Below are positions 18,464-64,000 of a stretch of 64,000 bases of DNA, piece by piece. This DNA is from a virus (lineage: Duplodnaviria; Heunggongvirae; Uroviricota; Caudoviricetes). The notes below the pieces were generated by a model that worked only from the letters and a program-made list of their open reading frames with translations, was not told the origin of the DNA and ran no database searches. The DNA is taken from the IMG/VR virus record IMGVR_UViG_3300010355_001317, positions 1 through 64,000 of that record; one strand, written 5' to 3'. Each line of letters begins with the position of its first letter. Positions within the stretch are counted from its first letter, which is position 1. The position numbers were made by a program, and so were the translations under genes.

Positions 18464-18538
18464 AAGCTCAATGAGCAATCATTATATCAAATTAAATTTA
18501 AACCTAAGCCTGTCTATTGCTTATAGCAATAGAACCCT

Positions 18539-18583: not shown

Positions 18584-18592
18584 CTAAAACTA

Positions 18593-33284: not shown

Positions 33285-33298
33285 TGATTTTTAATTAT

Positions 33299-33755: not shown

Positions 33756-33961
33756 ATCAAAACCCTAATATTTTTATTTTTCAGATTTTCTCTAAAACTA
33801 CTAGTACTTAAATAACATCTAATATTATGACGGTCAGAAAGACGTATATCTTTATCATGATCTATATCTAACTCATACTCACCGGGTTCAATCCATTCTT
33901 TAACTAATATAGAATCGGAATTTGCACTTTGATGCAATATTTTATAAACATAAATTTTCAT
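33752..33961 (-). CDS. small protein, family A
   Basis: tail SFRENLKNKNIRVLI. Confidence 0.45.
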   Translation of the reverse strand: MKIYVYKILHQSANSDSILVKEWIEPGEYELDIDHDKDIRLSDRHNIRCYLSTSSFRENLKNKNIRVLI

Positions 33962-34938
33962 ATTTTTAACATCTCTTTTACCTCTGATAAAACTTGTCTA
34001 GCTCTATCCATACTCTGATCGATATGAATACCGCCTACGCCTTCATGACCCCCGCCGCCATATTTTTCACAAATCTCTTTTATGTTATGTCTACGTTTCT
34101 CTTGATTCCAAGGATTTTGAGAAATCGCAACGTGCCATCCTTTGCCGAAGTAACTCATATCTCTTATATAAGCAGTATAGATAGATTCTGGTTTCCATCT
34201 GAATGGAAAGTATCTATCAAATTTATGATATTTAGGAATCTCAAAAGTAACTATATCATCTTCTAATTTAGCGACTTTAACAAATTCTCTATATCCTTCT
34301 TCAAGTTTATTTTGAATTTTTGAGTATCTCCACTCCACAGACCAAGGTAGGTATCCATCCAATAATCTATACAAAAGAGTTCTATCATTAGAAAACATCT
34401 TAATAATTTCTTGCCGATAGTTTTCATCTGCATCTTCCATCTCTGCTAATCTAAATTTAGGTCCAAATGTTTTTGGATTATAAACATCATCTATACTTGG
34501 ATATAGAGCGGAATCTACCATATTTACTTCTTTTACAATTTCAAAAATTAATTGTTCATCTAAGAATTTATTTCTGTTTTTCATAAGAAAGATAGCTTCC
34601 GCACAACTTCTTGCAGAAGGATCAAAATTCCCTACAAATTCAGTTGGAACGATTTTTCCCCACCCAGACGCATGATGATCTACCCAAAAGTCTATCGAGG
34701 GATTATATAGAAAATCTAGTACTATTAAAAACTCTGATGAATATTTCTTTTCTAAATCTAATTCTTGCCAGTTGGTAAGATTATAATTAACTGACTCCAT
34801 CAAGAACTTTGATTTAGTATCACCAGAATCTTTTAATAATTTAATATACAAAATACTAGACATAATTCCATCTAGGTCTTGATGATAAAAGATTCTATGA
34901 TTCATTTTTTTGATCTCCTCGAAGGAATTATAGACCAT
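33958..34938 (-). CDS. DHH-DHHA1 family phosphoesterase (NrnA/nanoRNase-like)
   Basis: DHH motif I FYHQDLDGIMSS, motif III DFWVDHHASGWG, and DHHA1 GGGGHEGVGG. Confidence 0.75.
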   Translation of the reverse strand: MVYNSFEEIKKMNHRIFYHQDLDGIMSSILYIKLLKDSGDTKSKFLMESVNYNLTNWQELDLEKKYSSEFLIVLDFLYNPSIDFWVDHHASGWGKIVPTEFVGNFDPSARSCAEAIFLMKNRNKFLDEQLIFEIVKEVNMVDSALYPSIDDVYNPKTFGPKFRLAEMEDADENYRQEIIKMFSNDRTLLYRLLDGYLPWSVEWRYSKIQNKLEEGYREFVKVAKLEDDIVTFEIPKYHKFDRYFPFRWKPESIYTAYIRDMSYFGKGWHVAISQNPWNQEKRRHNIKEICEKYGGGGHEGVGGIHIDQSMDRARQVLSEVKEMLKI

Positions 34939-41590: not shown

Positions 41591-41785
41591 CTAATCTGAT
41601 TCTTTAGATGCATTTTTCACTATTACGCATTTAGCATTATCTTTTACTTCCAAACTCATTCCGAATAGATAATCCATGTGTCCTTGCGCATTCCAATGAT
41701 GATCATATTTAGTATCTGGTGAATCACTACCAAATTTCTGAATAAATTCATGTTTACTTAATATTCTATACTTTATTAATTCCAT
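41591..41785 (-). CDS. small protein, family C (HWNxxGxMDYLFG), lacking the IILNQ tail
   Basis: DHHWNAQGHMDYLFG. Confidence 0.45.
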   Translation of the reverse strand: MELIKYRILSKHEFIQKFGSDSPDTKYDHHWNAQGHMDYLFGMSLEVKDNAKCVIVKNASKESD

Positions 41786-46550: not shown

Positions 46551-46573
46551 TCCAGTCTCCTATATTTATTTAA

Positions 46574-46831
46574 TTATGGAATAATCCATTCTTCTCTTAC
46601 ATAAATTATAAAATCTTTTAATTTACAATAAAAATATTTATACCTTGCTCTATCACCTTTCATTTTAAATACAACGTGTTGTGTATGTGTTTTGTCTTTT
46701 GGAAAATAGACAATATTTAATACAACTCCCTTTTTAGGATAATAAGAATTATAATGTAGTTTATAATCTACTTGCATGTGAGCTGCAGTACCTATAACTT
46801 TTTCTTGATTAATTATATATCTTAATTGCAT
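46574..46831 (-). CDS. hypothetical protein
   Basis: 85 aa. Confidence 0.4.
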   Translation of the reverse strand: MQLRYIINQEKVIGTAAHMQVDYKLHYNSYYPKKGVVLNIVYFPKDKTHTQHVVFKMKGDRARYKYFYCKLKDFIIYVREEWIIP

Positions 46832-46889
46832 TGTATACCTAGAAAGCAGGGGAGGACAATAATTGTCCCCCCCTGTTAATACTTACGAC

Positions 46890-48131
46890 TTACTTGAAAA
46901 ACTCTTCTGCTTCGACTCCTTGTTGATCTTTAATAGTCTCATCCATCCATTCTTCATATTTGGATTGGAGGCCTTTCATCGAATCAGTTACCAGGCAAGT
47001 GTAAGTTGTATTGAAAATCTCTGCTTCGTTTTGTGAGAGATGTTTTGCAACTTCTTCTATGATATGCTTCGGGGTATCTTCTTTGAAGCACCATACCTTC
47101 AAAGTATCTTCTTTGGAAGTTTTCATGTGCTTCTTCAGAGCACCTACTTGATGTCTTTCGCTTTCAGGAAGCCTGGAAGTATATCCAATATCAAAAGCTT
47201 CTTGAAGAGAAAAACCGCTCTTGAACAGCTGGGCGATTGATTTTAATCTTCTGGTAGTCGGAACTATCGAAAAGTTCTGCTTGCGCAGTATCTTGACGGT
47301 ATCCATCAGAATATCAATATCTTCATCTACCATTCCGCTATCGCGGAGTATTTGTGATTCCTGTGAAGTATAACCGAACTGAACAAACTCGAACCTGTCT
47401 ATCGATGCAAGATCGAGTGCATTGGTATTGTATTCAACCGATCCTTGCATATCTGAGTTACCAGAAGCAATTACTTTAAAGTCAGGATGGCATTTCACCA
47501 TCTCATTCGTCTCCTCGATAAGAAGTTGACCAGCTTCGAGTACCTCATGAAGCTTTGCAGCAAGATCTTCTGATGCTCTATCAAACTCATCGAGAATCAG
47601 AATCTTTCCTTCCTTCATTGCGCGAACAAGAGGACCTTCTATAAACTTGGTCTCTTCATTTACCAGTTCGAAGTGACCGATAAGCTTTGAAGGTTTCATA
47701 TCGTTCGAAATAGAAGAAAGATAATAGTTGCCTTTACCGGAAAGATATTTGGCATACGTCGTCTTTCCGCAACCTGCAGGACCCAACATGTACAAATTTG
47801 CTCCTATCTCAAAAATCTTTTTTGCAATCCTGTGTTCTGCAGTCTCATAATAAAGATCTCCATCTTCAGTTTGAACGCTTTTCGCTGAAACGTCTTCTTT
47901 TACTTCCACTGCCTCTCCTTTCTCCTTTTTCTCTTTAAATTTAAGCATTGCATCCTTCAAAGCTTTCTGATCCGAATCAGCATCAGAAAGATCTGCAAGG
48001 ACACGATCAAACTTTTTCTGCACGATTCCTCCATCTTTTTTGATGCCTATGTCATCATGCAGCGCCCATACGAACTTACCTTCGTCTATGAGCATGTTTA
48101 GTTGTTCTGCTCTCTTCTTGTAATTGATCAT
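46890..48131 (-). CDS. MoxR-like AAA+ ATPase (CobS-like)
   Basis: Walker A GPAGCGKTTYAKYLSGK, Walker B ILILDEFDRAS. GC content above genome background. Confidence 0.75.
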   Translation of the reverse strand: MINYKKRAEQLNMLIDEGKFVWALHDDIGIKKDGGIVQKKFDRVLADLSDADSDQKALKDAMLKFKEKKEKGEAVEVKEDVSAKSVQTEDGDLYYETAEHRIAKKIFEIGANLYMLGPAGCGKTTYAKYLSGKGNYYLSSISNDMKPSKLIGHFELVNEETKFIEGPLVRAMKEGKILILDEFDRASEDLAAKLHEVLEAGQLLIEETNEMVKCHPDFKVIASGNSDMQGSVEYNTNALDLASIDRFEFVQFGYTSQESQILRDSGMVDEDIDILMDTVKILRKQNFSIVPTTRRLKSIAQLFKSGFSLQEAFDIGYTSRLPESERHQVGALKKHMKTSKEDTLKVWCFKEDTPKHIIEEVAKHLSQNEAEIFNTTYTCLVTDSMKGLQSKYEEWMDETIKDQQGVEAEEFFK

Positions 48132-49889: not shown

Positions 49890-50111
49890 TCACTCCTGAT
49901 CTAACTTAAATTCCACTGTTCCTTTTTCTACTAATGGTACTATCGAAATAGTATGAAGTATATTAAGAACTCCTATAGCTCGTTCTTCATCTTTAGTTAA
50001 AGATCCTTGTGAAGTGGACTTTAAAGAAAGATGAATAAGAGAACGACCAGAAGAAACTGCTATATCCTCTGGCTTTGCCATTGCCAATAAGTTACCTATA
50101 TTCATTTCCAA
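49890..50111 (-). CDS. hypothetical protein
   Basis: 73 aa. Confidence 0.35.
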   Translation of the reverse strand: MEMNIGNLLAMAKPEDIAVSSGRSLIHLSLKSTSQGSLTKDEERAIGVLNILHTISIVPLVEKGTVEFKLDQE

Positions 50112-51701: not shown

Positions 51702-51950
51702 TTAATTGCTGTAACTTTCATTATCACTCTCCTCTTGTAATATTATCATACTCTTTTCTTTTAACCAATTCTTAAAGTCATCTTTAGTTATTAACCAAGG
51801 ATGCTTAGGATCTGCTTCCAGATTATTTATGTTAAATAAAGCAATATGTGAGTAATGTGTTTCATGATGAATAGTAACTTTGTAGATACCATTTTCTTTT
51901 GGTCTAGAATTTGTTATTCCTCGGCAATCTTTTAGAAATTTAACTATCAT
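51702..51950 (-). CDS. small protein, family A
   Basis: tail DFKNWLKEKSMIILQEE. Confidence 0.45.
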   Translation of the reverse strand: MIVKFLKDCRGITNSRPKENGIYKVTIHHETHYSHIALFNINNLEADPKHPWLITKDDFKNWLKEKSMIILQEESDNESYSN

Positions 51951-52118
51951 ATTCTTGTTTGTGTTTGTGCTTTCTTGTGTATCTTTTTTTATCTATGATT
52001 ACTTTTTCTGGTTTGATTTGTAATCTACCAATTATTCTCTTAATCTCTTTTTGTAAAATATCGTTTTTTATTCTAGAACTTTTCATTGCTTTTTCTTTTA
52101 TTTTCATTTTGAACGAAT

Positions 52119-52364
52119 TTAGTTATCTGTTATTATTTCTAATATTCCTTCTCTTAATAACTTTTTAAAATCTGCTACACTAATTCCTTGATCTATGTTT
52201 GGTGAGTGTTTTTTACCGTCATCAGAATAGCAATTGCATTCACTACCTTTAAATCTAATTACTTTTGATCTAGAAGATTCTATGAATATTTCATAATCCC
52301 CTGTAAAATTATAAATCCTTCCACCGATATGTGGCTGTAAAAATTCTTTTACTCTTACGCGCAT
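52119..52364 (-). CDS. small protein, family A (tandem triplet 1/3)
   Basis: FTGDYEIFIE ... DFKKLLREGILEIITDN. Confidence 0.5.
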   Translation of the reverse strand: MRVRVKEFLQPHIGGRIYNFTGDYEIFIESSRSKVIRFKGSECNCYSDDGKKHSPNIDQGISVADFKKLLREGILEIITDN

Positions 52365-52582
52365 ATTTCTATAATTCCTTCTCTTAATAACCTTTTAAAA
52401 GTTCTTGGTGGTATTCCCTGATCCACTGACCTGTTTGTAATATCAGAACTTCCTTTAAATCTAATAAAAACTTTTTCCATATCTTGAACACAAGGATCAA
52501 TATATACTTCAAAAGTACCAGTAAAAGAAGCTATAGGAACATCGCTATAATTTGCTATATTTTTTTTAACTCTTACTTTCAT
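52355..52582 (-). CDS. small protein, family A (tandem triplet 2/3)
   Basis: SFTGTFEVYID ... TFKRLLREGIIEICA. Confidence 0.5.
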   Translation of the reverse strand: MKVRVKKNIANYSDVPIASFTGTFEVYIDPCVQDMEKVFIRFKGSSDITNRSVDQGIPPRTFKRLLREGIIEICA

Positions 52583-52797
52583 TTCGTTACTATTCTAAGT
52601 ATTCCTTGTCTTAATAATCTTTTAAACTCGCTTGGTGGTATTCCTTGATCACGACCCTCTGTACTATTTTTAAATCTAATATAAACTCCTTCTCTATTTA
52701 TCACATTATGATCGAGGTATATTTCGAATGTTCCAGTAAAAGAAGCAATATAAAATGATACAAGATCAGTAAGCTCTTGTGTTACTTGAACTAACAT
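52579..52797 (-). CDS. small protein, family A (tandem triplet 3/3)
   Basis: SFTGTFEIYLD ... EFKRLLRQGILRIVTK. Confidence 0.5.
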   Translation of the reverse strand: MLVQVTQELTDLVSFYIASFTGTFEIYLDHNVINREGVYIRFKNSTEGRDQGIPPSEFKRLLRQGILRIVTK

Positions 52798-54354: not shown

Positions 54355-54642
54355 TTAATTTTCTTGATTTAAAACAATTTGTTCTTCTTCATATGAAGAT
54401 ATACCAATCTTACCGGGCAAGGGGTCTATAGTCAGCATATCTTCTGATATGCCCCATCTCCACGGATGCCCATCTATATATGAATCTAGTATTTCAGACC
54501 CATCATGTGGCTGGCCAAATAAGTAGTCCATTCCACCGTTATGATTCCAGTGAATAGCAAGTTTATTTTTCCAATCTGGACCGTATTGTTTTTCAAATTC
54601 TTCTCTTGTTTTAAATCTTAAAGATTTCTTAGTATGTTCCAT
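54355..54642 (-). CDS. family C protein (HWNHNGGMDYLFGQPHDG) with IILNQ-type C-terminal tag
   Basis: tail SSYEEEQIVLNQEN-stop. Confidence 0.5.
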   Translation of the reverse strand: MEHTKKSLRFKTREEFEKQYGPDWKNKLAIHWNHNGGMDYLFGQPHDGSEILDSYIDGHPWRWGISEDMLTIDPLPGKIGISSYEEEQIVLNQEN

Positions 54643-54652
54643 ATAAATTATC

Positions 54653-54931
54653 CTAATAAACAGTATATAGAGTTTTTACATAATCTACATACTCACCAAA
54701 AGACCAGATTGCAGATATAGATATCCAGTTAGTATCAGACACTCTATATTTGTAAGACTTATAGACTTGATCCAAAGTCACAATAGGTCTAACTGCTAGT
54801 TTTCCTGTCATATCGTATACTATTGCCTTCATAAGCTCCTCCTTAATATACGCAACCAAAACCTGAAGCAGATTGCTGTGGTTTATGATTGCCTTGCATT
54901 GCTTTAAGCATTTCTTTTTCATGAACTTCAA
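54653..54931 (-). CDS. hypothetical protein (true start probably internal, near 54830)
   Basis: Overlaps the radical SAM gene 3-prime end. Confidence 0.35.
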   Translation of the reverse strand: MKFMKKKCLKQCKAIINHSNLLQVLVAYIKEELMKAIVYDMTGKLAVRPIVTLDQVYKSYKYRVSDTNWISISAIWSFGEYVDYVKTLYTVY

Positions 54932-55838
54932 AAGCTTTCTTTGCTTCTTCTACTGTAAGCTCTCCAGATTTAACTTTTTCAAGAATTAAAGTAAGAAGTT
55001 TTTCATCCATATTTTTCCTTTCCTGAAGAGATATTTGCCAACCTTTGTATATATTTCCGTCATAATATAAAACATCTTTTTGAACTTGTTCAGGTGCAAT
55101 AGGAAGAGGTCTTAATGGATTCTGTAATCCACACATTTGTCTAAAACTACAAAATACGCCGTCTAGATACCCTGTATTAACACATCCTTGCGTAAAAGGA
55201 TCTTCATTCAACCCATAGACACCTTTACCAAAAATAGTTTCTAGACCAACAAAATTATTCGTATCATTTTTTAATTCTGCAAATCTAACTTCAAATACAT
55301 TCATTTCTTTGGCAAATCTGATATAATGCTGAATAGAAATAACCGTATCTATTTCACCGTATATTATATTACAATTAAGTCTTACACTTGTATTTTGTAA
55401 CTGGAGTTGTTGTATAGAACTTTGAAGTACTTTATAATCAAGAAGAAGACCAGTTATTATACTATTTATATATGGTGAATAATGATGAACAGAAATGTTT
55501 ATTCCCTTGAGTCCTTGTAAATTTTCTTTGCAATACTTTCTGGTAAGCAGACTTCCATTAGTAGTTAAATACACATTTAAATTATGAGAAGTTAAAATAT
55601 CAATAATTTTATGTAAATGTTTATGTAGTGTTGGTTCTCCACCAAGTAAAATAACATTCTTCTTTCCTGAATCAATAGCAGCTTTACAAATAGTATTTAT
55701 ACTTACTTCTTTTGTGGGCATAAAAGAATTCTTATTTATACACCAAGAGCACCTTCCATTACAATCAGAAAGAAGATTTACTTCTAACCAATCCTGATAG
55801 CAACTTCCGCTACAAAAGTTATTTGTATGAGCTTTCAT
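54843..55838 (-). CDS. radical SAM enzyme, function unknown
   Basis: CNGRCSWC (Cx3Cx2C) near the N-terminus. GGEPTL glycine-rich SAM motif. Confidence 0.75.
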   Translation of the reverse strand: MKAHTNNFCSGSCYQDWLEVNLLSDCNGRCSWCINKNSFMPTKEVSINTICKAAIDSGKKNVILLGGEPTLHKHLHKIIDILTSHNLNVYLTTNGSLLTRKYCKENLQGLKGINISVHHYSPYINSIITGLLLDYKVLQSSIQQLQLQNTSVRLNCNIIYGEIDTVISIQHYIRFAKEMNVFEVRFAELKNDTNNFVGLETIFGKGVYGLNEDPFTQGCVNTGYLDGVFCSFRQMCGLQNPLRPLPIAPEQVQKDVLYYDGNIYKGWQISLQERKNMDEKLLTLILEKVKSGELTVEEAKKAFEVHEKEMLKAMQGNHKPQQSASGFGCVY

Positions 55839-55895: not shown

Positions 55896-57119
55896 TTGAA
55901 TAAAGTAAATTATAAAATGTTGAAAACATATAAATACAGACTCTATCCTACATCCAATCAAATTGTTTTATTCGAAAAACATTTTGGTTGTGCTCGATTT
56001 GTCTATAATTGGGGATTACAAACAAAAATCGATGCTTATCAAAAAGAAAGTAAATCATTATCATTTTACTCTCTTATACCATTACTTGCAAAACTTAAAA
56101 GTGAACCTGGTAAAGAATGGTTATATGAAGTTAATAGCCAATCTCTACAAAATTCTCTTTTTAATCTGGATAAAGCATTTACTAAATTCTTTCGAGATAA
56201 AAAAGGATTTCCTAAATTCAAATCTAAAAAGAATAATAGACAATCTTTCCAAATACCCCAAAATACTAAAATTGATTTCGAATCAAATAGAATCTCAGTA
56301 CCGAAAATAAAAAGTATTAAAGCTAAAATATCAAGAAAATTTGAAGGTAAAATAAAAACGTCTACTATTTCTAAAACTCCTACAGGTAAATTCTTTATTT
56401 CAATACTTGTTGAAACTCCTGATGATATACAATCTAAACCAAGTATAAAAGAAAATAAAACAATAGGAATAGATTTAGGACTTACACATTTTGCTATATT
56501 ATCAAATGGAATTAAAATTGATTCACCAAAGTTTTTAAAGAAATCCTCTCATCGCTTAAAATTATTACAAAGGAGATTATCAAGAAAAGTAAAAGGATCT
56601 AACAATAGAAATAAATCTAGATTAAAAGTAGCTTTATTGCATGAAAAGATAGAAAACCAAAGATTAGATTTTCTACATAAATTAACATATTTTTTAACCC
56701 ATGATAACCAAGTGGATACAATATGTTTAGAAAATCTTAATATTTCTGGAATGTTAAAAAACCATAAACTAGCATGTTCTATTTCAGATGCTTCTTGGAG
56801 TAAATTTATTGAGCTTTTGAAATACAAATGTGACTGGTATGGTAAAAATTTATTATTTATAGGTAGATTTGAACCTTCTTCAAAAATGTGTTCATGCGGA
56901 GCAATTAATCAGCTTCTTACACTAGCAGATAGAAGTTGGATTTGTCCTTCATGTAAAACGTTAATTGAAGATAGAGACATACATGCTGCCTTAAATATTA
57001 AAAAATTTGCACTTCAAAAACAAAATATAGTAGGGTGGGAATCACCCGAATTTACGCTTGCCAAATATGATTCTTTTATTGAATCAGGGCAAGAATCTTT
57101 TGCCTTTAGACAAAAGTAG
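55896..57119 (+). CDS. tnpB: IS200/IS605-family TnpB (second, divergent copy); solo
   Basis: N-terminal YKYRLYPT...FGCARFVYNWGL, RuvC-I IGIDLGL, RuvC-II ICLENLN, zinc finger CSCG...CPSC, RuvC-III RDIHAALNI. Confidence 0.9.
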   Translation: MNKVNYKMLKTYKYRLYPTSNQIVLFEKHFGCARFVYNWGLQTKIDAYQKESKSLSFYSLIPLLAKLKSEPGKEWLYEVNSQSLQNSLFNLDKAFTKFFRDKKGFPKFKSKKNNRQSFQIPQNTKIDFESNRISVPKIKSIKAKISRKFEGKIKTSTISKTPTGKFFISILVETPDDIQSKPSIKENKTIGIDLGLTHFAILSNGIKIDSPKFLKKSSHRLKLLQRRLSRKVKGSNNRNKSRLKVALLHEKIENQRLDFLHKLTYFLTHDNQVDTICLENLNISGMLKNHKLACSISDASWSKFIELLKYKCDWYGKNLLFIGRFEPSSKMCSCGAINQLLTLADRSWICPSCKTLIEDRDIHAALNIKKFALQKQNIVGWESPEFTLAKYDSFIESGQESFAFRQK

Positions 57120-57867: not shown

Positions 57868-58113
57868 CTAGAAAGGAATAATCACTTTTTCTTTTATTAA
57901 TTTCTTAAGTAAATTGATACCTTCTGACGTATGATATTGTATAAATGCACTATGATCTTTTGTGTCATAACAAATTGTATTAATAGAGTTTTTTCTATCT
58001 ATCTTAAATACTTGACCCTTCTTCTGGGTTAGATACGCTAAAGGAATGTAGCATGATCTAGCTTTTGGAAATTCATAATCCTTAGTTAAAATAAATCTTT
58101 TCGGAAACTTCAT
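57868..58113 (-). CDS. small protein, PKRFIF subfamily
   Basis: MKFPKRFILTKDYEF ... tail LIKEKVIIPF. Confidence 0.45.
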   Translation of the reverse strand: MKFPKRFILTKDYEFPKARSCYIPLAYLTQKKGQVFKIDRKNSINTICYDTKDHSAFIQYHTSEGINLLKKLIKEKVIIPF

Positions 58114-58353
58114 ATCTTATTACCATCTTTATCACAGAAGAAAAGTAAATTCTCTTTAAGCATCTTTCTAAAATCAGAAGAATAAATAAATTGACTACAG
58201 TGTGCATTGCAAGATAAAAATATTAACTCTGACTGCGGAGTAGAAGAATCTGCTGTATTTGGGACAACAAGATAAATATATTGTGGATTTAATGAAAAGT
58301 AACTTCAGCTTTAGGTCTTCTCCAGTTAATATGGTTACGAGGTTTAATATACA

Positions 58354-58578
58354 TTAAAGTTTATCTCCTTTTTTGGAGCAAAAATAAATAAGATTCTCTT
58401 TAATTAATCTTCTAAAATCTTTAACTGAAATACTCTGGCCATATCCTAGTGTTAAGCTCTGTAATCGAACTCTGTCATTCCAATGACAAGATACTTCATA
58501 AGCATCTACATATAAAGTAAATCCTATTTCATAATCTCCTGTTTTGGTTGCTATCATATGATAAGGTTTAATATACAT
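58354..58578 (-). CDS. small protein, family A (array member)
   Basis: tail DFRRLIKENLIYFCSKKGDKL. Confidence 0.5.
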   Translation of the reverse strand: MYIKPYHMIATKTGDYEIGFTLYVDAYEVSCHWNDRVRLQSLTLGYGQSISVKDFRRLIKENLIYFCSKKGDKL

Positions 58579-58814
58579 TATATTAAATCACCATTTTCGT
58601 CACAAATACCAAGTATATTCTTTTTGATTAGTTCTCTAAAATCAGATACGGTAACATATTGTTTCTTAGATCTATCTAAACTTATTAGAATCAAGCAAGG
58701 TGCATCATGATAATCAGAAGTATTAATAACTTCATAAATAATATTACCATGTAAAGTAAAAGATAAATTTCCACCAAAAGAAATTTTTTGATTATCAGTT
58801 AATTTAACAACCAT
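58578..58814 (-). CDS. small protein, family A (array member)
   Basis: tail DFRELIKKNILGICDENGDLI. Confidence 0.5.
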   Translation of the reverse strand: MVVKLTDNQKISFGGNLSFTLHGNIIYEVINTSDYHDAPCLILISLDRSKKQYVTVSDFRELIKKNILGICDENGDLI

Positions 58815-58837
58815 ATATTATCCTAAATATCTAATGT

Positions 58838-58923
58838 GCCCAGAGCGGGAATTGAACCCGCATGACTTCAACAGTCGAGGGATTTTAAGTCCCTTGTGTC
58901 TACCAGATTCCACCATCTGGGCT
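58838..58923 (-). tRNA. tRNA-Leu (TAA anticodon), type II
   Basis: Acceptor GCCCAGA/TCTGGGC, D-arm GTGGAATCTGGTAGACAC, anticodon arm AGGGA-CTTAAAA-TCCCT, long variable arm GACTGTTGAAGTC, T-arm CGGGTTCAATTCCCG. Confidence 0.85.
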
Positions 58924-58929
58924 AATTTA

Positions 58930-59145
58930 CTACTCTATAACTACTGAAATAATCTTTTGTTTTAAAAAATCTCTAAACTCATTTCTAGTTATTACTATGC
59001 ATGAACCTCCTACTTGTGATAAGCAAACATTTAAATTATTTAACTCCCCGTAAACATCTACATTAAGAATATTTCCTTGATAAGTTTTTGTATCTTGAAA
59101 TATTAAAGGAAGTTCCCTACTTGGTTTATTAACTTTAACTTTCAT
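58930..59145 (-). CDS. small protein, family A (array member)
   Basis: tail EFRDFLKQKIISVVIE. Confidence 0.5.
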   Translation of the reverse strand: MKVKVNKPSRELPLIFQDTKTYQGNILNVDVYGELNNLNVCLSQVGGSCIVITRNEFRDFLKQKIISVVIE

Positions 59146-59368
59146 CTTTAACTATTTCTATTATTTTATTTCTTAATAATTCTTTAAATGCTTCTCTTGA
59201 TATAATGTATCCATGATTATCAGTACCACAAATTGTTAGATATGTATCTGGAAACAATCTGTTTGGTGAATAGTTTAAATGATTTTTCCAGAGATCAATT
59301 TTGCAGGTATCATTAATAGAAAAGTATTCTGTATTACTATCTGTGTTATTTAATATTCTAACTTTCAT
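59135..59368 (-). CDS. small protein, family A (array member)
   Basis: tail AFKELLRNKIIEIVKDES. Confidence 0.5.
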   Translation of the reverse strand: MKVRILNNTDSNTEYFSINDTCKIDLWKNHLNYSPNRLFPDTYLTICGTDNHGYIISREAFKELLRNKIIEIVKDES

Positions 59369-59627
59369 TTATGTTGGATCTCACTACTCTAAAAATACCA
59401 GATCTTAGACAAAATCTAAAAGATATTTTATCTAATATAATACCCTTACCGCCTATCTTATGTAATAGTACATTATGTATATGTGTTTCTCCATATCCTT
59501 TCCAAGGAGAAACTTCCAATACATCTCCTGGTCTAAAGTTTTTATATCTCCATGCAAAAGGAAGATCCTCTTCTTCTATTAAGAGTTGAACTTGCATTTC
59601 ATTGCCCAAATTCTTTTTTACTATCAA
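59358..59627 (-). CDS. small protein, family A (array member)
   Basis: PGDVLEVSPW ... SFRFCLRSGIFRVV. Confidence 0.5.
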   Translation of the reverse strand: MIVKKNLGNEMQVQLLIEEEDLPFAWRYKNFRPGDVLEVSPWKGYGETHIHNVLLHKIGGKGIILDKISFRFCLRSGIFRVVRSNINES

Positions 59628-59847
59628 GAATTTCTATATACTCTCCAAGTAATAATTTTCTATAATTATGTTTTGAAATAAAGTAACCATGTTCGTTAAT
59701 TGGGCATATAATTAATCTATTAGATGTATCATGTGAACTTGTATTCTTGGGGTGATCTTTCCAATATCTAATTTCTAGAATATCTCCAGGTACCCAATTT
59801 TTTGTATCAGAAATAAATGGAATTGGTTTAAGTAATTTAATCTTCAT
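59599..59847 (-). CDS. small protein, family A (array member)
   Basis: PGDILEIRYW ... NYRKLLLGEYIEIL. Confidence 0.5.
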   Translation of the reverse strand: MKIKLLKPIPFISDTKNWVPGDILEIRYWKDHPKNTSSHDTSNRLIICPINEHGYFISKHNYRKLLLGEYIEILDSKKEFGQ

Positions 59848-60073
59848 ATATTAGTTCTATATAATTATTTCTAAGTAAATCTTTGAACTGTTCTCTGGTT
59901 AGAAAGTTTCCACTTTGATTTAAATCTTGTCGACAAATTGTAAGAATGTCTTTTTGACGAGAGCTTCTTTCTGACCACATTGGGTGATCTTTCCAAAGGA
60001 GTAACACAGTTATCTCATTTACTTGAAACATTTTAAGCTTGTCATGTGAGTTATTTATAATTCTGCATTTCAT
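59837..60073 (-). CDS. small protein, family A (array member)
   Basis: tail QFKDLLRNNYIELIYED. Confidence 0.5.
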   Translation of the reverse strand: MKCRIINNSHDKLKMFQVNEITVLLLWKDHPMWSERSSRQKDILTICRQDLNQSGNFLTREQFKDLLRNNYIELIYED

Positions 60074-60309
60074 TGTATATCTTCTTCTATTATTTTAATT
60101 TTATGTTCTCTTAAAAGTTTCTTAAATATTTTTCTATCTATAAACCAACCTGTGTTTTGCATATCTTTACACAAGATCAAAGTATCCGATTCTCTGGGAC
60201 CTCCGATACGATAATGGGAATGATGTTTATATAAACAAATTTCAGCAGTAGTACCTTCTTTCCATATCTTACTCCATATCTCAAAACTTTTAAGTATAAA
60301 AATTTTCAT
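60070..60309 (-). CDS. small protein, family A (array member)
   Basis: tail IFKKLLREHKIKIIEED. Confidence 0.5.
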   Translation of the reverse strand: MKIFILKSFEIWSKIWKEGTTAEICLYKHHSHYRIGGPRESDTLILCKDMQNTGWFIDRKIFKKLLREHKIKIIEEDIQ

Positions 60310-60796: not shown

Positions 60797-61021
60797 TTAA
60801 TTATCCTGATTTAATATAATTTGTTTTTCAACTTCAGATATACCTATTAATTCTACCTGGCTTTCTAGAATACCGTAACGATAAGATTTACCATCCCAAT
60901 TGTCTGGCTGAAATCTTATATAAGAATCAGACGCATATTCGCAAACAATACCAGTAACACCCTTTTTTATCCATTCATTTTTTAAAGTTCTAACTCTATC
61001 ACCTATTTTAAACTTATGCAT
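60797..61021 (-). CDS. KOW/SH3-like small protein with IILNQ C-terminal tag
   Basis: N-terminal MHKFKIGDRVRT; tail EVEKQIILNQDN-stop. Confidence 0.5.
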   Translation of the reverse strand: MHKFKIGDRVRTLKNEWIKKGVTGIVCEYASDSYIRFQPDNWDGKSYRYGILESQVELIGISEVEKQIILNQDN

Positions 61022-61023
61022 AG

Positions 61024-61317
61024 TTAGTTGTTCTGATTTAGGATAATTTGCTTCTCATCGTTATAAGATATACAATTTATAGGAATAGTTTCTACTGGAT
61101 TACCTTCAATCAAATCTAAACTGTTAGGTGAAAAGTTAGCAGTATATCTTTGCTGAAATATATAAGCTTCTCTTTCAAAAACAACAACAATAAGAAACTT
61201 ATCCCTACATCCTCTATAATAACTTTGAATGTCAAGAATTGTACCTACCTTACCACGAAGATTATGTTGAGTAGATCTTCTATTAACTCTAACCTTATCA
61301 CCCACATTAAATTTCAT
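61024..61317 (-). CDS. KOW/SH3-like small protein with IILNQ C-terminal tag
   Basis: N-terminal MKFNVGDKVRV; tail NDEKQIILNQNN-stop. Confidence 0.5.
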   Translation of the reverse strand: MKFNVGDKVRVNRRSTQHNLRGKVGTILDIQSYYRGCRDKFLIVVVFEREAYIFQQRYTANFSPNSLDLIEGNPVETIPINCISYNDEKQIILNQNN

Positions 61318-61318
61318 A

Positions 61319-61528
61319 TTAGATATCCTGATTAAGAGTTATTTTCTTTTCTTCAATCAAAATTGAATTGAAGTTTAATTGATCAATTGATTGTAAATCT
61401 TTTTCTGAGCATTGTTTTCTACAGGAAGGGTCTGTTTCCTTCACACAAATAAACCATTTCTGTTTACACCCGTGCCATATTTGATAGTCAATATTCAATA
61501 TCTCTTTAGGAGTTTCTTCTTTAAACAC
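61319..61528 (-). CDS. Cys-containing small protein with ITLNQ C-terminal tag
   Basis: tail EEKKITLNQDI-stop. Confidence 0.45.
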   Translation of the reverse strand: MFKEETPKEILNIDYQIWHGCKQKWFICVKETDPSCRKQCSEKDLQSIDQLNFNSILIEEKKITLNQDI

Positions 61529-61550
61529 TCAAACACTATCTTTTTTCATT

Positions 61551-61808
61551 TCAAACATCCTGATTAAGAATTATTTGTGATTCATCAAGAACATAACTCA
61601 AACATATTAACCCAACATGCCTAATAGGAATGACAAAAGAATTTTCTTTTAGAGTAATAGCTGGTATATTTCCATATAATCGAATAACTGCTTTAATAGT
61701 AAATATTTTATCTATTAAACCATACATCTTTCCATCCCAGCTATATCTTACAATATCATCTTCTAGTGAAGAACAAACCCTTACTTTATCGCCAATCTTA
61801 AGATCCAT
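61551..61808 (-). CDS. KOW/SH3-like small protein with IILNQ C-terminal tag
   Basis: N-terminal MDLKIGDKVRV; tail DESQIILNQDV-stop. Confidence 0.5.
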   Translation of the reverse strand: MDLKIGDKVRVCSSLEDDIVRYSWDGKMYGLIDKIFTIKAVIRLYGNIPAITLKENSFVIPIRHVGLICLSYVLDESQIILNQDV

Positions 61809-61921
61809 TATATTTAATCCCTCTTTTGTGATTTAATTGATGTATTTATAAAAGATCTGCTACAGACATGCAGCAGATCTTGAGATAAATAAACCTAAAT
61901 TAAACTCTGTTAATACTTCCG

Positions 61922-62251
61922 TTACTTCATCTCTTCGCCGAACATGAAGACGTATTCTTTCTTGATCTTTGCCTGCATTTCGGTCAAGCGCTCGATCATG
62001 CGCTGAGCTTCGATAACATTGTTCACATTGTAGTCTTTGAAGTTCAGTCTTTCTTTTTCAATGATAGCTTCCTGATCGATTTTTTTGTTTTCTGCATCAT
62101 CGTAAGCAGCGGACATCTTGCGTTGAATGGCTTTGCGAATTTGCGGCTTCTTCGCCGCTTCCAGCACTTCTTTCGCAGCACCGAAAAATTTGTCGAAAAA
62201 ACATCCTTCTCCTTCTGCTACTTCAGTGATTTCTTTTTCGTCTTTTGCCAT
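61922..62251 (-). CDS. hypothetical protein, compositionally atypical (GC-rich)
   Basis: 109 aa with a strong AAGGAGG RBS. GC content well above the neighbours. Confidence 0.5.
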   Translation of the reverse strand: MAKDEKEITEVAEGEGCFFDKFFGAAKEVLEAAKKPQIRKAIQRKMSAAYDDAENKKIDQEAIIEKERLNFKDYNVNNVIEAQRMIERLTEMQAKIKKEYVFMFGEEMK

Positions 62252-62271
62252 ATTAATGGCCTCCTTTATAT

Positions 62272-62520
62272 TTAGTTTTGATTTAATATTATTTGTTCTT
62301 CTTCTAAAAAGAACGTTGTTTGTAGAGTTCTGATTCTCTCAAGCTCCTTAATAGCATATTCTTTTATCTGATCTGTTGAGAGTAAGTTGCGTGTAACAAA
62401 ATTAAAACAAGGATGCTTATCAAGGAGATGTTCGCAATGAGTATCGCAATTAATCCCCCAACAACTTCCGTTTTGGGAAATAAGTTCTTCTAAAAGATTT
62501 TCTTTGCTTATAATCTTCAT
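62272..62520 (-). CDS. small protein with IILNQ C-terminal tag
   Basis: tail FLEEEQIILNQN-stop. Confidence 0.45.
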   Translation of the reverse strand: MKIISKENLLEELISQNGSCWGINCDTHCEHLLDKHPCFNFVTRNLLSTDQIKEYAIKELERIRTLQTTFFLEEEQIILNQN

Positions 62521-62522
62521 AT

Positions 62523-63158
62523 TTAACTCTCTATCTTGATTGATGAAGCAACTCTTTCGAAGTATTCAAGAATTTTTCTCCCTTCTTCATCCTGAAGCAA
62601 TGCTTTCTTCAACAGAGCTGCACGAAGCTTTCTTGCTTGCTTAGGTAATTCCTTTATTTCTTTTTCAAGAGAAGAGATCTTTCCATATAATGATGTTTTT
62701 TTCTTGTACACTTCATCATTATATTTTTCAATTTTAACTTGAAGTGGTTTGGAATAAGATATCCAAATACGTATTTCAGGGACATAGTCACCTGAAATAT
62801 TTTTACCATCTTTTAGCATTGATCGAACTTTTATTCCCTGATGATATCCAGTATCAATTCGAAATTCAACATTTTCTTGTTTAGCACCGAGGATTTCAAA
62901 ACATTTGATATGCTTTTCTTTCATTTCATTTATTTCTTTCTTTAGAAGATCTTGGATAAAAGCATCTACAGAGGCTTTTTCTACTTCTTCCAATTCTACG
63001 TTTGCTTCTTTTAACTGCTTCTCTAAAATCTCTTCCTTCTCAAGAATCATTAAGTCAATAAGTTCTTTTTTATCGACAGTAACTGTATTATCTATGATGA
63101 GTGAAGGAGCACCTTTTTGTATAACTTCGAGATCTTTCGAAACGTTTTTCTTTGTCAT
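62523..63158 (-). CDS. coiled-coil protein
   Basis: 211 aa with long K/E-rich heptads. Confidence 0.45.
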   Translation of the reverse strand: MTKKNVSKDLEVIQKGAPSLIIDNTVTVDKKELIDLMILEKEEILEKQLKEANVELEEVEKASVDAFIQDLLKKEINEMKEKHIKCFEILGAKQENVEFRIDTGYHQGIKVRSMLKDGKNISGDYVPEIRIWISYSKPLQVKIEKYNDEVYKKKTSLYGKISSLEKEIKELPKQARKLRAALLKKALLQDEEGRKILEYFERVASSIKIES

Positions 63159-63252
63159 TTTATTTCTCCTATTTGTAAATTATAAATTACGTGTATTTCT
63201 CTATAAAAATTCTTTTATATTATTCTTGAATTTCAGTAGGAACGAATTTCTC

Positions 63253-63528
63253 CTATATCTCCTGATTTAAAATAATCTGTTGTTCATCTGCTATCGAACA
63301 TATTGCTGCAGGCAAAGGTTTTGTTGTAACCATACAACTCGAAATTGCCCAAAGCTTTCCATTTTTTGGATTTGTAACATGTCCTGTTCCATCGTAAGGT
63401 TGACCAAATAGATAATCCATTCCGCCACCCACCTTAGGATCTGAGACCCAATGTAAATGTACTTTAGTTCTCCAGTCCTCACCGAATTCTTTTTCAAATT
63501 CCTCTTTAGTTTTAAATCTTAAATTCAT
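63253..63528 (-). CDS. family C protein (GGGMDYLFGQPYDG) with IILNQ C-terminal tag
   Basis: tail ADEQQIILNQEI-stop. Confidence 0.5.
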   Translation of the reverse strand: MNLRFKTKEEFEKEFGEDWRTKVHLHWVSDPKVGGGMDYLFGQPYDGTGHVTNPKNGKLWAISSCMVTTKPLPAAICSIADEQQIILNQEI

Positions 63529-63617
63529 ATAAGTACCTCAGCTAATAATAATGGTTTATTTCCTACAACTCCACCCAACCATAAAGTCCTTTCACTAGAG
63601 CGGGGCATTCGTCTCAA

Positions 63618-63718
63618 TAACAGTTTTGGGCAAAGCAGGAATCGAACCTGCGATGATAGAATTTGACGGTTCTGTTGCAATCCAGTATCTATCTCACGCT
63701 TAGCGTTTACCACTTCGC
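63618..63718 (-). ncRNA. non-canonical tRNA-like RNA (about 101 nt): acceptor, D-arm and T-arm with an enlarged central hairpin in place of the anticodon arm
   Basis: Acceptor GGGCAAA/TTTGCCC+A, D-arm GCGAAGTGGTAAACGC, T-arm GCAGG-TTCGATT-CCTGC. The central part is a 6-bp stem GATAGA/TCTATC enclosing about 28 nt. Confidence 0.4.
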
Positions 63719-63729
63719 CATTTGCCCAT

Positions 63730-64000
63730 AACGCCGGCTTCTCACCGGCAAGGGCGTTGATACTAATGAATAAGATTAGTATCACTCCTCGAGCCACAAT
63801 GCCTTTTGTGGGGAGTTTATATAAGGAGCAAAGCTCCTGTGCTACTTTACGTTCCTGTGAGGAAGACATCGCACGCTTCCAAGCCGCCAGGATAATTTAC
63901 AAAACGCATCATCCTTCCACCCCTTGCGCCTTCCAGTTGGACCTACGGCACTATTATTTTGCGGGGATTGAGTTAGGGGACTCTCTACTTTAGGTTGTCT
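63730..64000. ncRNA. GC-rich structured non-coding region, truncated by the window end
   Basis: The only ORFs (63525..63869 -, 63757..63993 +) look like spurious ORFs in a GC-rich stretch. Multiple hairpins are visible, e.g. GCCGGCTTCTCACCGGC. Confidence 0.25.

What the first reader, a model, noticed from the sequence alone, without database searches (positions are those of the whole stretch)
60797..63528. Unrelated small proteins share one C-terminal peptide, [EQK]-Q-I-[IV]-L-N-Q-[DEN]-x, ending at the stop codon
Seven minus-strand genes end in an almost identical tail: EKQIILNQDN (60797), EKQIILNQNN (61024), EKKITLNQDI (61319), ESQIILNQDV (61551), EEQIILNQN (62272), EQQIILNQEI (63253) and EEQIVLNQEN (the remote copy at 54355). 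Their N-terminal parts belong to at least four unrelated families: KOW-like KIGDKVRV proteins, the HWN..GGMDYLFG family, a Cys protein and another small protein. A third family C member (41591..41785) lacks the tail. The underlying DNA (plus strand about TCCTGATTTAAnATAATyTGTT) is also conserved, so the tail appears to have spread among genes as a module. A shared C-terminal peptide on unrelated proteins suggests a sorting, packaging, degradation or assembly tag, analogous to virion-targeting signals or degrons. Alternatively it could be a footprint of a site-specific recombination or homing event at gene 3-prime ends.
Basis: seen in the sequence. Interest (0 to 1): 0.72.

Follow-up and report, generated by a model that had tools for sequence, protein, structure and literature searches.

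The report
Shared C-terminal docking tag on phage proteins
A huge phage from anaerobic digesters attaches the same short peptide (…D/E-E-x-Q-I-I-L-N-Q-x-x-end) to the ends of at least eleven small proteins from unrelated families; it looks like a plug-in address tag, and a conserved neighbouring 100-residue protein is the best guess for what reads it.

Summary
All seven minus-strand ORFs end in [DE]-E-x-[QK]-I-[IVT]-L-N-Q plus 1-2 residues and a stop. Four more lie just beyond the window end, so the genome has at least 11.

- **Bodies:** they fall into three unrelated families plus one orphan, and two of the families also have tail-less members in the material read.
- **Selection:** it acts on the peptide, not the DNA. 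Across 27 distinct tail DNAs the IILNQ core has pN/pS 0.08 with synonymous sites saturated, and codon choice matches genome usage. Tails are better conserved than bodies in 18 of 19 homologue pairs.
- **Overlapping signal:** only the last Q/D codons carry a second signal. CAG-GAT supplies the AGGA ribosome-binding site when the next ATG is 0-9 nt away.
- **Spread:** a cassette gain or loss whose crossover lies inside the tail-coding DNA shows how the module moves.
- **Distribution:** the full motif occurs only in this phage clade.
- **New lead:** a single-copy, strongly conserved ~100-aa helical protein (61922-62251) sits beside a tail-bearing gene in every lineage. That includes distant phages with only one such tail (…ITLNQSL, …KLNQDN).

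Best reading: a modular docking tag recognised in trans, with this protein as candidate receptor. What docking achieves is unknown.

The parts
60797..61021 (-). Tailed gene, family A (SH3/KOW-like, 74 aa). The tail core VEKQIILNQDN plus stop occupies 60797-60832.
   Evidence: ortholog in L047 keeps the tail 9/9 with the body 86% identical
61024..61317 (-). Tailed gene, family A (97 aa). The tail core DEKQIILNQNN plus stop occupies 61024-61059.
61319..61528 (-). Tailed gene, orphan Cys protein (69 aa, GTG start). The tail EEKKITLNQDI plus stop occupies 61319-61354. The whole gene is a cassette bounded by two tail-coding repeats and is absent in relative L047.
61551..61808 (-). Tailed gene, family A (85 aa). 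The tail DESQIILNQDV plus stop occupies 61551-61586.
   Evidence: L047 ortholog body 50% identical, tail 9/9
61852..61881 (-). 13-bp hairpin followed by UUUU, just after the 109-aa gene. It looks like an intrinsic terminator.
   Evidence: dG -21.8 kcal/mol, z -3.4; sequence read; not called by the simple consensus scan
61922..62251 (-). Single-copy, strongly conserved ~100-aa helical protein (109 aa here), the candidate receptor or partner of the tail. Motifs: RK[LFM][QS][SA]AYDDA and KEY..FGEE. GC is 0.42 against 0.29-0.32 for adjacent genes, and it has its own AAGGAGG ribosome-binding site.
   Evidence: no Pfam, PHROG or PDB relative
62272..62520 (-). Tailed gene, family D (Cys-rich helical, 82 aa). 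The tail EEEQIILNQN plus stop occupies 62272-62304. It lies immediately upstream (20 nt) of the 109-aa gene.
63253..63528 (-). Tailed gene, family B (91 aa). The tail DEQQIILNQEI plus stop occupies 63253-63288.
54355..54642 (-). Remote tailed gene, family B (95 aa). The tail EEEQIVLNQEN plus stop occupies 54355-54390. It has no counterpart at this position in L047, where a TnpB gene sits.
41591..41785 (-). Tail-less family B paralog (64 aa). It shows that the tail is optional for the body.
   Evidence: E 1e-7 to 54355 body
49890..50111 (-). Possible degenerate tail: a 73-aa ORF ending ...VEFKLDQE. Not counted among the seven.
   Evidence: loose pattern only; could be chance

Best explanation
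The tail is a modular C-terminal short linear motif. Its consensus is an uncharged hydrophobic/Ser-rich stretch of about five residues, then [DE]-E-x-Q-I-[IV]-L-[ND]-Q-x-x-COOH.

**Shown**
- It is maintained by purifying selection on the peptide.
- It is attached to at least four unrelated small-protein bodies, giving at least 11 genes per genome.
- It occurs in a clade of huge phages from anaerobic-digester metagenomes.
- At least one gene gain or loss had its crossover inside the tail-coding DNA.

**Inferred**
- It spreads between genes by recombination within the tail-coding DNA. This lets new bodies be plugged into, or removed from, a common pathway.
- It works as a docking tag read in trans by one common partner, positioned relative to the free C-terminus. 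Q is two residues from the end in 28 of 30 tails and one residue from it in the other two.
- The best candidate reader is the single-copy, probably highly expressed ~100-aa helical protein at 61922-62251. It would be one hub serving many clients.

**Not known**
- What docking achieves: stabilisation, delivery, assembly or turnover.

My confidence that this is a peptide-level tag recognised in trans is about 0.6.
For: **Selection on the peptide**
- The IILNQ core has pN 0.07 against pS 0.88 among 27 distinct tail DNAs.
- Codon frequencies at tail columns match genome synonymous usage.
- The tail is better conserved than the body in 18 of 19 homologue pairs, for example bodies 17-57% identical against tails 6-9 of 9.

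**Modularity**
- There are three unrelated families plus an orphan.
- Tail-less members exist: 41591-41785; four family D genes in L139 at 613-1640; and a B+D fusion in L112/L139.

**Fixed register to the C-terminus**
- In 30 distinct tails I(-4), L(-2) and Q(0) are 100%, N/D(-1) is 100%, and E(-7) is 93%. One or two free residues follow.

**Spread by recombination**
- The L047 junction is a hybrid of the 61551 tail and the 61319 tail end. The crossover lies in the shared TCTTAATCAGGAT.

**Link to the ~100-aa protein**
- It is single copy per locus.
- It is 70% identical between sublineages whose tailed proteins are 17-51% identical in the body.
- It is adjacent to a tailed gene in the window (62272) and in L112/L196 (family A gene).
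- It is also adjacent in distant phages that have exactly one such tail in the 12-20 kb locus. In Tara L193 the upstream 127-aa gene ends ...ETITLNQSL, and its stop overlaps the ATG of the ~100-aa gene. In IMG/VR L198 the downstream 200-aa gene ends ...KPKLNQDN. In IMG/VR L199 the upstream 214-aa gene ends ...PVLNTNN.
- Those neighbours have different bodies.
- My rough estimate for the pre-defined core LNQ plus 1-2 residues plus stop is about 4e-4 per ORF by chance, so two of three outgroup loci hitting at an immediate neighbour is about 1e-6.
- The loose pattern L[ND][QT] plus 1-2 residues hits 1/108, 1/73 and 1/203 ORFs in these loci, and each time the hit is that neighbour.

**Expression hints for the 109-aa gene**
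- GC 0.42 against 0.30, an AAGGAGG ribosome-binding site, and a terminator hairpin.
Against: - There is no physical or structural evidence of binding. Both AlphaFold runs on tailed proteins were unusable (pLDDT about 44), and no multimer prediction was possible.
- Conserved adjacency could reflect an operon with a shared function rather than direct contact.
- The L199 tail (LNTNN) was recognised only after loosening the pattern.
- In the two tail-rich lineages, adjacency is not surprising by itself.
- The remote copy (54355) and several other tailed genes are far from the 109-aa gene.
- The last two residues are variable, which is unusual for readers that grip the C-terminal carboxylate.
Confidence: 0.5

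Rival explanations
1. The tail is a degron. It is recognised directly by a host AAA+ protease or its adaptor, giving these accessory proteins a short, timed life. No phage receptor is involved.
For: - The motif is C-terminal, exposed and modular, and it is optional within families. That is what one expects of a regulatory add-on.
- The selection is on the peptide.
- From my own knowledge, phage proteins with C-terminal ssrA-like tags are known (integration-dependent immunity in mycobacteriophages).
Against: - The last two residues are variable and mostly polar (NN, DN, DI, NI...). This is unlike the LAA/VAA-COOH degrons read by ClpX.
- Invariant N and Q suggest specific side-chain recognition rather than a generic hydrophobic degron.
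- This reading does not explain the conserved adjacency to the ~100-aa gene, unless that protein is itself the adaptor.
Confidence: 0.15
2. The tails bind each other. The hydrophobic stretch, the acidic turn and IIL would form a beta-hairpin or zipper, so that the tagged proteins co-assemble into hetero-oligomers or a condensate.
For: - The core Q-I-I-L-N-Q is a beta-prone, Q/N-flanked hydrophobic triplet, preceded by a second uncharged hydrophobic stretch and an acidic pair.
- The low-confidence AlphaFold models drew two short strands there. This is not reliable.
- Many tagged genes are co-transcribed in one array.
Against: - In the outgroup loci read (about 12-20 kb each) only one tailed gene was found. 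A self-pairing tag would have no partner there unless it forms homo-oligomers.
- The strict distance to the C-terminus is not needed for zippers.
- There is no repeat or amyloid-length motif.
Confidence: 0.1
3. The tail is a virion- or compartment-targeting signal. Tagged proteins would be packaged into the capsid or another phage-built structure, in the manner of encapsulin cargo-loading peptides or the T4 capsid-targeting sequence.
For: The logic matches: one short terminal peptide on unrelated cargo. From my own knowledge, huge phages are known to package many proteins.
Against: - The genes lie in an array of small accessory ORFs next to PolX, a radical SAM enzyme and TnpB, not in a structural module.
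- The conserved neighbour is a ~100-aa helical protein, not a shell protein.
- In the Tara outgroup the pair sits between a weakly family-B-polymerase-like gene (Pfam hit below threshold, E 0.005) and a helicase.
- The motif does not resemble known cargo peptides.
Confidence: 0.07
4. The tail acts on the ribosome as a nascent-chain element. It would slow or arrest termination and so tune translation of the tightly coupled downstream gene.
For: - The conservation is at the peptide level, at a fixed distance from the stop codon.
- Many downstream starts are 0-2 nt after the stop.
- From my own knowledge, VemP, SecM and MifM carry C-terminal arrest sequences.
Against: - The two residues before the stop, and the stop codon itself, vary.
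- The downstream distance ranges from 0 to 206 nt, and some tails have no coupled gene.
- No N-terminal export signal is evident on reading the seven sequences; this was not tested with a predictor.
- Tail-less paralogs sit in the same kind of arrays.
Confidence: 0.05
5. The element is primarily nucleic-acid level: a recombination or homing site, or a translational-coupling signal at gene junctions. The peptide would be a by-product.
For: - One cassette gain or loss has its crossover inside the tail DNA.
- CAG-GAx (AGGA) is used when the next ATG is 0-9 nt away, and CAA plus N/S/T is used when the spacer carries its own ribosome-binding site.
Against: - Synonymous sites are saturated (pS 0.88) while amino acids are fixed (pN 0.07).
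- Leu uses TTA, CTT and CTA, and Ile uses ATT, ATA and ATC, in genome proportions.
- The ribosome-binding-site overlap explains only the last Q codon and the residue after it.
Confidence: 0.03
6. The tail is an intramolecular cap needed for folding or stability of each small body.
For: It is always at the end of very small proteins. A hydrophobic triplet could pack on a core.
Against: - The same peptide sits on folds that share no detectable similarity.
- Tail-less family members exist.
- Bodies diverge freely while the tail is fixed.
Confidence: 0.05

Closest known systems
Beta-clamp-binding motifs (Q-phi-x-[L/M]-[F/L] or Q-phi-x-[L/M]-x-[F/L]) and, from my own knowledge, the gp45-binding C-terminal tails of T4 proteins
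   Same: A short linear motif, often at the extreme C-terminus of unrelated proteins, is read by one hub. The first four residues Q-I-I-L fit Q-phi-x-L (PMC11139829).
   Different: - The critical last hydrophobic position is N/D or Q here and is invariant.
- The leading Q is the least conserved core residue (22 of 30).
- No link to a clamp gene was found.
- The tail is not a member of this motif class.
Encapsulin cargo-loading peptides and the T4 capsid-targeting sequence (own knowledge)
   Same: One short terminal peptide is shared by unrelated cargo proteins. The genes sit next to the gene for the protein that reads the tag. The tag is portable.
   Different: - The conserved neighbour is a ~100-aa helical protein with no detectable relative, not an HK97-fold shell.
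- The sequence is unrelated.
- The T4 tag is N-terminal and is cleaved.
- The genomic context is accessory or replication genes, not structural genes.
ssrA-like C-terminal degradation tags on phage proteins (own knowledge: integration-dependent immunity in mycobacteriophages)
   Same: A C-terminal add-on controls the fate of a phage protein and can be gained or lost by recombination at the 3' end.
   Different: Those tags end in nonpolar residues (…AA-COOH) and mimic the host tmRNA tag. Here the end is polar and variable, and the conserved part lies 2-10 residues inside.
PeSL-type mobile junction cassettes of T4-like phages (own knowledge: Arbiol et al. 2010)
   Same: Repeated sequences at gene boundaries in hyperplastic regions serve as crossover points for shuffling small genes.
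   Different: Those are non-coding promoter and stem-loop DNA conserved as nucleic acid. Here the repeat is coding and is conserved only as a peptide.

Membership tests
Beta-clamp-binding motif (CBM) | Hydrophobic F/L at motif position 5 (pentamer) or 6 (hexamer), which fills subsite I of the clamp pocket | tested here: not met
   Positions after L are N/D (30/30) and Q (30/30). Motif definition from PMC11139829.
Beta-clamp-binding motif (CBM) | Conserved Gln at motif position 1 | tested here: inconclusive
   Q in 22 of 30 tails; otherwise K, S, P, E, T, L or I.
Beta-clamp-binding motif (CBM) | Binds the host or phage sliding clamp | not testable with these tools
   Host unknown. No multimer prediction or binding assay available.
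ssrA/ClpX-type C-terminal degron | Nonpolar last residues with a free carboxylate (…LAA/…VAA-COOH) | tested here: not met
   Last two residues are NN, DN, DI, NI, EI, NS, SI, EN, SN, AN, TN, DV or a single N.
ssrA/ClpX-type C-terminal degron | Tag-dependent proteolysis | not testable with these tools
   Needs half-life measurements.
Encapsulin cargo-loading peptide or capsid-targeting signal | The same short terminal peptide on unrelated cargo proteins | tested here: met
   Three families plus an orphan share the tail.
Encapsulin cargo-loading peptide or capsid-targeting signal | Cargo genes adjacent to an HK97-fold shell or capsid gene | tested here: not met
   The conserved neighbour is a ~100-aa helical protein with no Pfam, PHROG or PDB relative. 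None of the ten largest window proteins hit a capsid family.
DNA-level junction cassette (PeSL-like) or homing footprint | Conservation of the nucleotide sequence beyond what the encoded peptide requires | tested here: not met
   pS 0.88 against pN 0.07 in the core; codon choice equals genome usage.
DNA-level junction cassette (PeSL-like) or homing footprint | Repeats at gene boundaries act as crossover points for cassette gain or loss | tested here: met
   Gene 61319-61528 is bounded by two tail repeats and is missing in L047, with a hybrid junction.
Ribosome arrest peptides (SecM, MifM, VemP type) | N-terminal export or membrane-insertion signal that relieves the arrest | tested here: not met
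   No N-terminal hydrophobic signal is evident on reading the seven sequences; no signal-peptide predictor was run.
Ribosome arrest peptides (SecM, MifM, VemP type) | A downstream gene controlled through the stalled ribosome | tested here: inconclusive
   The next start lies 0-206 nt after the stop. Some tails have no coupled gene.
RiPP precursor with a C-terminal recognition or core peptide | Precursor genes encoded next to the modifying enzyme | tested here: not met
   Only the remote copy (54355) lies near a radical SAM gene (54843-55838). L047 keeps that enzyme without the tailed gene.

The most novel reading that the evidence does not exclude
The LNQ tail and the ~100-aa helical protein form a previously undescribed phage-encoded tag-and-receptor system. 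It is ancient as a one-client pair in several phage lineages, where it can sit next to replication genes. In one clade of huge phages it has expanded into a plug-and-play bus. In that clade, any small effector body can be routed to the same hub simply by acquiring about 16 codons at its 3' end through recombination.
Probability: 0.3. Interest if true: 0.8.

Novelty: new variant of a known kind. Interest (0 to 1): 0.62.

Why it matters
- Huge phages carry hundreds of small ORFs of unknown function. A shared address tag groups at least eleven of them, across four unrelated bodies, into one pathway and names a single candidate hub. That turns a list of orphans into a testable system.
- It would also document, in a phage, how short linear motifs spread. 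Recombination occurs inside the motif-coding DNA while selection acts only on the peptide.
- If binding is confirmed, the 11-16-residue tag and its ~100-aa reader would be a compact, portable tag and reader pair.

Tried and rejected
1. **IMG/VR scan with the degenerate tail DNA.** It gave 36 loci, all with internal matches or non-ORF sequence and no C-terminal tail.
2. **Metagenome and GTDB-genome scans with tail plus stop.** Only contigs of this phage clade carry more than one tail. The singletons are background, including a Marinobacter 167-aa protein ending EEEWQIILNQAG that I read as an EVE-domain protein (not family-scanned) and treat as a chance match.
3. **Profile searches.** Searches of 5.8 billion clusters and 1.84 billion representatives found only own-lineage proteins at E <= 1e-3, plus low-complexity repeats. 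New bodies with weaker scores would not be listed.
4. **Pfam and PHROGs on the tailed proteins.** Nothing useful.
5. **AlphaFold2 on family A and B alignments of 5 sequences.** pLDDT was 44-45, so the models are unusable.
6. **Internal GKIILNQV in the DUF7873 protein (18593-19336).** It is not conserved in homologues, so it is chance.
7. **A Shine-Dalgarno-only explanation.** It accounts for CAG-GAx only.
8. **Beta-clamp motif.** It fails at the key hydrophobic position.
9. **Radical SAM or RiPP link.** It is not kept in L047.
10. **The astacin gene upstream of the window as a tail protease.** It has a lipoprotein signal peptide, while the tailed proteins have none.
11. **A weak CENP-T histone-fold hit for one ~100-aa homologue.** It was not reproduced in the other members.
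12. **Homologues of the ~100-aa protein in cultured phages.** None found.
13. **Literature search for the peptide string.** Nothing relevant.


Full report

Yes. ORF listing and six-frame motif searches show seven minus-strand ORFs that end in [DE]-E-x-[QK]-I-[IVT]-L-N-Q followed by one or two residues and a stop. They sit exactly at the stated coordinates: stops at 60797, 61024, 61319, 61551, 62272, 63253 and 54355. The seven lie in three reading frames.

The degenerate DNA pattern for I-[IVT]-L-N-Q occurs 9 times in the window against 0.94 expected, and none of 100 shuffles reaches 9. Seven of the nine are in frame at an ORF end.

The window is a co-directional array of small genes at about 30% GC. 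It also holds two TnpB genes, a homing-endonuclease-like gene, a MoxR/VWA pair, an AAA protein and a radical SAM enzyme. Identical proteins occur on anaerobic-digester metagenome contigs of up to 237,933 bp, so this is part of a huge phage. It has no DNA match among cultured phages.

**2. The set is larger than reported.**

Contigs of the same phage that run past the right end of the window carry four more tailed genes. All four belong to one Cys-rich helical family: L038 428-670, 927-1175, 3265-3492 and 3509-3778. That makes at least 11 per genome, ten of them clustered in about 13 kb.

Diverged relatives also have tails:
- L047, whose tailed proteins are about 50-99% identical in the body, has seven in the stretch read.
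- L116 has three.
- A more distant sublineage (L112, L139, L196; GC 0.33-0.35) has up to seven per 10 kb. Its variants include IILDQNN, ILLDQNN and IILDQNS.

From 30 distinct tails the module reads as follows:
- Five or so uncharged hydrophobic or Ser residues.
- D/E at position -8 (90%).
- E at -7 (93%).
- Any residue at -6.
- Q at -5 (73%).
- I at -4 (100%).
- I/V/L/T at -3.
- L at -2 (100%).
- N at -1 (90%, otherwise D).
- Q at 0 (100%).
- Then two variable residues (one residue in two cases) and the stop.

**3. Are the bodies unrelated?**

After trimming the tail, all-against-all BLASTP groups the proteins into three families and an orphan:
- Family A: SH3/KOW-like, MKxxxGDKVRV.
- Family B: RFKTxEEFxKEFGxDW…MDYLFG.
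- Family D: Cys-rich helical, GxCxxIxCxxC…AKKRLAEL.
- Orphan: 61319.

There is no significant cross-family similarity. Two of the families also have tail-less members in the material read: 41591-41785 (family B), four family D genes in L139, and a B+D fusion without a tail in L112/L139. The tail is therefore an add-on, not part of a shared domain.

**4. Peptide or DNA?**

Codon choice at the conserved columns mirrors genome-wide synonymous usage. Leu uses TTA, CTT and CTA; Ile uses ATT, ATA and ATC; Asn uses AAT and AAC.

Among 27 distinct tail DNAs the IILNQ core has pS 0.88 (saturated) and pN 0.07, giving pN/pS 0.08. In 18 of 19 homologue pairs the 9-residue tail is better conserved than the body. 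One example is the 61551 ortholog pair, with bodies 50% identical and tails 9 of 9. Cross-sublineage bodies are 17-51% identical against tails of 4-8 of 9.

Selection is therefore on the peptide.

**5. One genuine overlapping nucleic-acid signal.**

The final Gln is CAG when followed by GAx. This gives CAGGA, an AGGA Shine-Dalgarno site. That form is typically used when the next gene's ATG lies 0-9 nt after the stop; a few CAG-GAx tails have spacers of 17-94 nt.

When the spacer is long enough to carry its own AGGAG, the tail mostly uses CAA followed by N, S, T or A. This explains the D versus N/S/T variation after Q. It does not explain the rest of the motif.

**6. How the module moves.**

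Gene 61319-61528 is present in the window lineage and absent in L047.
- The L047 junction matches the 61551 tail up to TCTTAATCAGGAT.
- From there on it matches the end of the 61319 tail and the start of 61024.
- The cassette is thus bounded by two tail-coding repeats, and the crossover lies inside them.
- This is direct evidence that tail DNA serves as microhomology for gain or loss of bodies. It is a plausible route for the tail's spread to unrelated families.
- Because synonymous sites are saturated overall, such events are occasional and are not the cause of conservation.

**7. Distribution.**

- The full motif was not found as a C-terminal tail in IMG/VR.
- It was not found, other than as chance singletons, in GTDB representative genomes.
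- It was not found in metagenome contigs outside this clade.
- An exhaustive profile search of 1.84 billion representatives returned only own-lineage proteins at E <= 1e-3.
- Pfam and PHROGs do not know the bodies.
- The peptide string is not in the searchable literature.

**8. The new lead: a conserved ~100-aa neighbour.**

Inside the cluster lies a 109-aa gene (61922-62251) that stands out in several ways:
- Its GC is 0.42, against 0.29-0.32 for adjacent genes.
- Reading the sequence, it is rich in C-ending codons.
- It has its own AAGGAGG site and a 13-bp terminator-like hairpin after it.
- It is 70% identical between the two sublineages, whose tailed proteins are 17-51% identical in the body.
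- It is single copy in every locus.

In the window the gene immediately upstream is tailed (62272, family D). In L112/L196 the gene immediately upstream is a tailed family A gene. In L139 that gene survives only as a 35-aa fragment.

Homologues at 32-43% identity were found in three distant phage lineages, each of which has exactly one LNQ-type C-terminus in the 12-20 kb examined. In each case that C-terminus belongs to an immediate neighbour of the ~100-aa gene:
- Tara contig L193 (GC 0.42): the upstream 127-aa gene ends …RRETITLNQSL, and its TAA overlaps the ATG of the ~100-aa gene. The pair lies between a weakly polymerase-like gene (Pfam family-B hit below threshold, E 0.005) and a helicase.
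- IMG/VR L198 (GC 0.35): the downstream 200-aa gene, which contains a family B domain, ends …KPKLNQDN.
- IMG/VR L199 (GC 0.27): the upstream 214-aa gene ends …PVLNTNN.

The bodies of these neighbours differ from one another.

For the pre-defined invariant core (LNQ plus 1-2 residues plus stop), I estimate a chance rate of about 4e-4 per ORF. Two of three outgroup loci hitting at an immediate neighbour is then of order 1e-6. The L199 case was recognised only after loosening the pattern and is merely suggestive. With the loose pattern, the hits are 1/108, 1/73 and 1/203 stop-to-stop ORFs, each being that neighbour. The background in the window is 2/525.

The ~100-aa family has no Pfam, PHROG or PDB relative.

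**9. Mechanism.**

What is shown:
- A peptide-level, modular, C-terminus-registered motif on unrelated bodies.
- Spread by recombination within its coding DNA.
- Conserved synteny with one single-copy small helical protein across five lineages.

What is inferred:
- The tail is a docking tag read in trans.
- An ancestral one-client pair expanded in the digester clade.

The outcome of docking is unknown.

I put about 0.6 on a tag recognised in trans and about 0.35 on this particular reader. The rivals are:
- A host-read degron.
- Tail-tail self-association.
- Virion targeting.
- Nascent-chain control of termination.
- A primarily nucleic-acid element.
- An intramolecular cap.

Each is listed in the rivals section with evidence and refutation tests. 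The nucleic-acid rival is largely excluded.

**10. Comparison with known systems.**

- **Functional resemblance.** The tail resembles hub-binding short linear motifs and cargo-loading peptides.
- **Beta-clamp motif.** The tail fails the definition. Q-phi-x-L fits, but the required F/L is an invariant N/D or Q (PMC11139829).
- **ssrA-type degrons.** It fails here too, because the ends are polar and variable.
- **Encapsulin or T4 capsid tags.** It fails because there is no shell gene and the sequence is unrelated.
- **PeSL-like DNA cassettes.** It fails because there is no nucleotide-level conservation.
- **Classification.** I therefore file it as a new variant of a known kind (shared terminal docking peptide), with an undescribed candidate reader.

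**11. Limits.**

No model of the 109-aa protein and no complex prediction could be made.
- Only about 74 kb of a roughly 238-kb genome was readable.
- The host is unknown. NCBI bins one contig with a Candidatus Dojkabacteria MAG, which may be a binning artefact.

Noticed in passing
window 31724-34000, 51702-52797, 57868-60309 (and L038, L112, L139): A second, larger paralog family: about 20 genes of 64-90 aa in the window. They share a different conserved C-terminal region, F-[RK]-x-x-L-[RK]-x-G-x-I-x-I-[IV] followed by a few acidic or polar residues. They are interleaved with the LNQ-tailed genes.
   Followed up: partly
window 63627-63727 (-), inside the 'ORF' 63525-63869: Rfam calls a 101-nt tRNA (44 bits) that ARAGORN missed. 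The local GC is 0.50. The 114-aa ORF drawn over it is probably not a gene. The tRNA lies directly upstream of tailed gene 63253-63528.
   Followed up: partly
window 18593-19336 (-); L190, L191, L192: The DUF7873 protein (Pfam E 2e-95) has homologues in 75 cultured phage genomes. In the three I inspected (Gordonia Phendrix, Rhizobium RHph_TM39, Vibrio D499) the gene has tRNA genes close by, and in the first two it sits inside a large tRNA array. That hints at a tRNA-related role. In the window a roughly 530-nt non-coding gap (18060-18592) lies next to it.
   Followed up: partly
window 11778-13037 (+) and 55896-57119 (+); L047 14843-16033: Two TnpB/IS605 OrfB genes lie on the opposite strand to all other genes. 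The one near the radical SAM gene sits at a different position in relative L047, where the tailed gene 54355-54642 has no counterpart.
   Followed up: partly
L112 1935-2342; L139 7111-7488: A single ORF fuses the N-terminal part of family B (RIKTEQEFIKEFGEDW) to a family D Cys-rich domain, without a tail. This is evidence of domain shuffling among these small proteins beyond the tail itself.
   Followed up: partly
window 44754-48131 (-): A MoxR-type AAA_5 ATPase (413 aa) and a VWA-domain protein (598 aa) lie about 24 nt apart in a region of higher GC (0.36).
   Followed up: no
L038 5961-6647 (about 4 kb beyond the window's right end): An astacin-family metalloprotease with a lipoprotein signal peptide is encoded among the tailed genes. 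It is conserved in L047 and L196.
   Followed up: no
P0017 annotation; L037 = GCA_035354715.1 contig DAOQBE010000002.1: NCBI holds a contig of this phage inside a MAG labelled Candidatus Dojkabacteria. This is either a binning artefact or a host hint.
   Followed up: no
L150 5373-5876 and other Marinobacter loci: A 167-aa protein in Marinobacter, which I read as an EVE-domain protein (not family-scanned), ends …GEEEWQIILNQAG. I judged the near-identical C-terminal string in an unrelated bacterial protein to be coincidence.
   Followed up: partly
window 49890-50111 (-): A 73-aa ORF ends …VEFKLDQE. This may be a degenerate LNQ-type tail of the kind seen in outgroup L198 (…KPKLNQDN).
   Followed up: no
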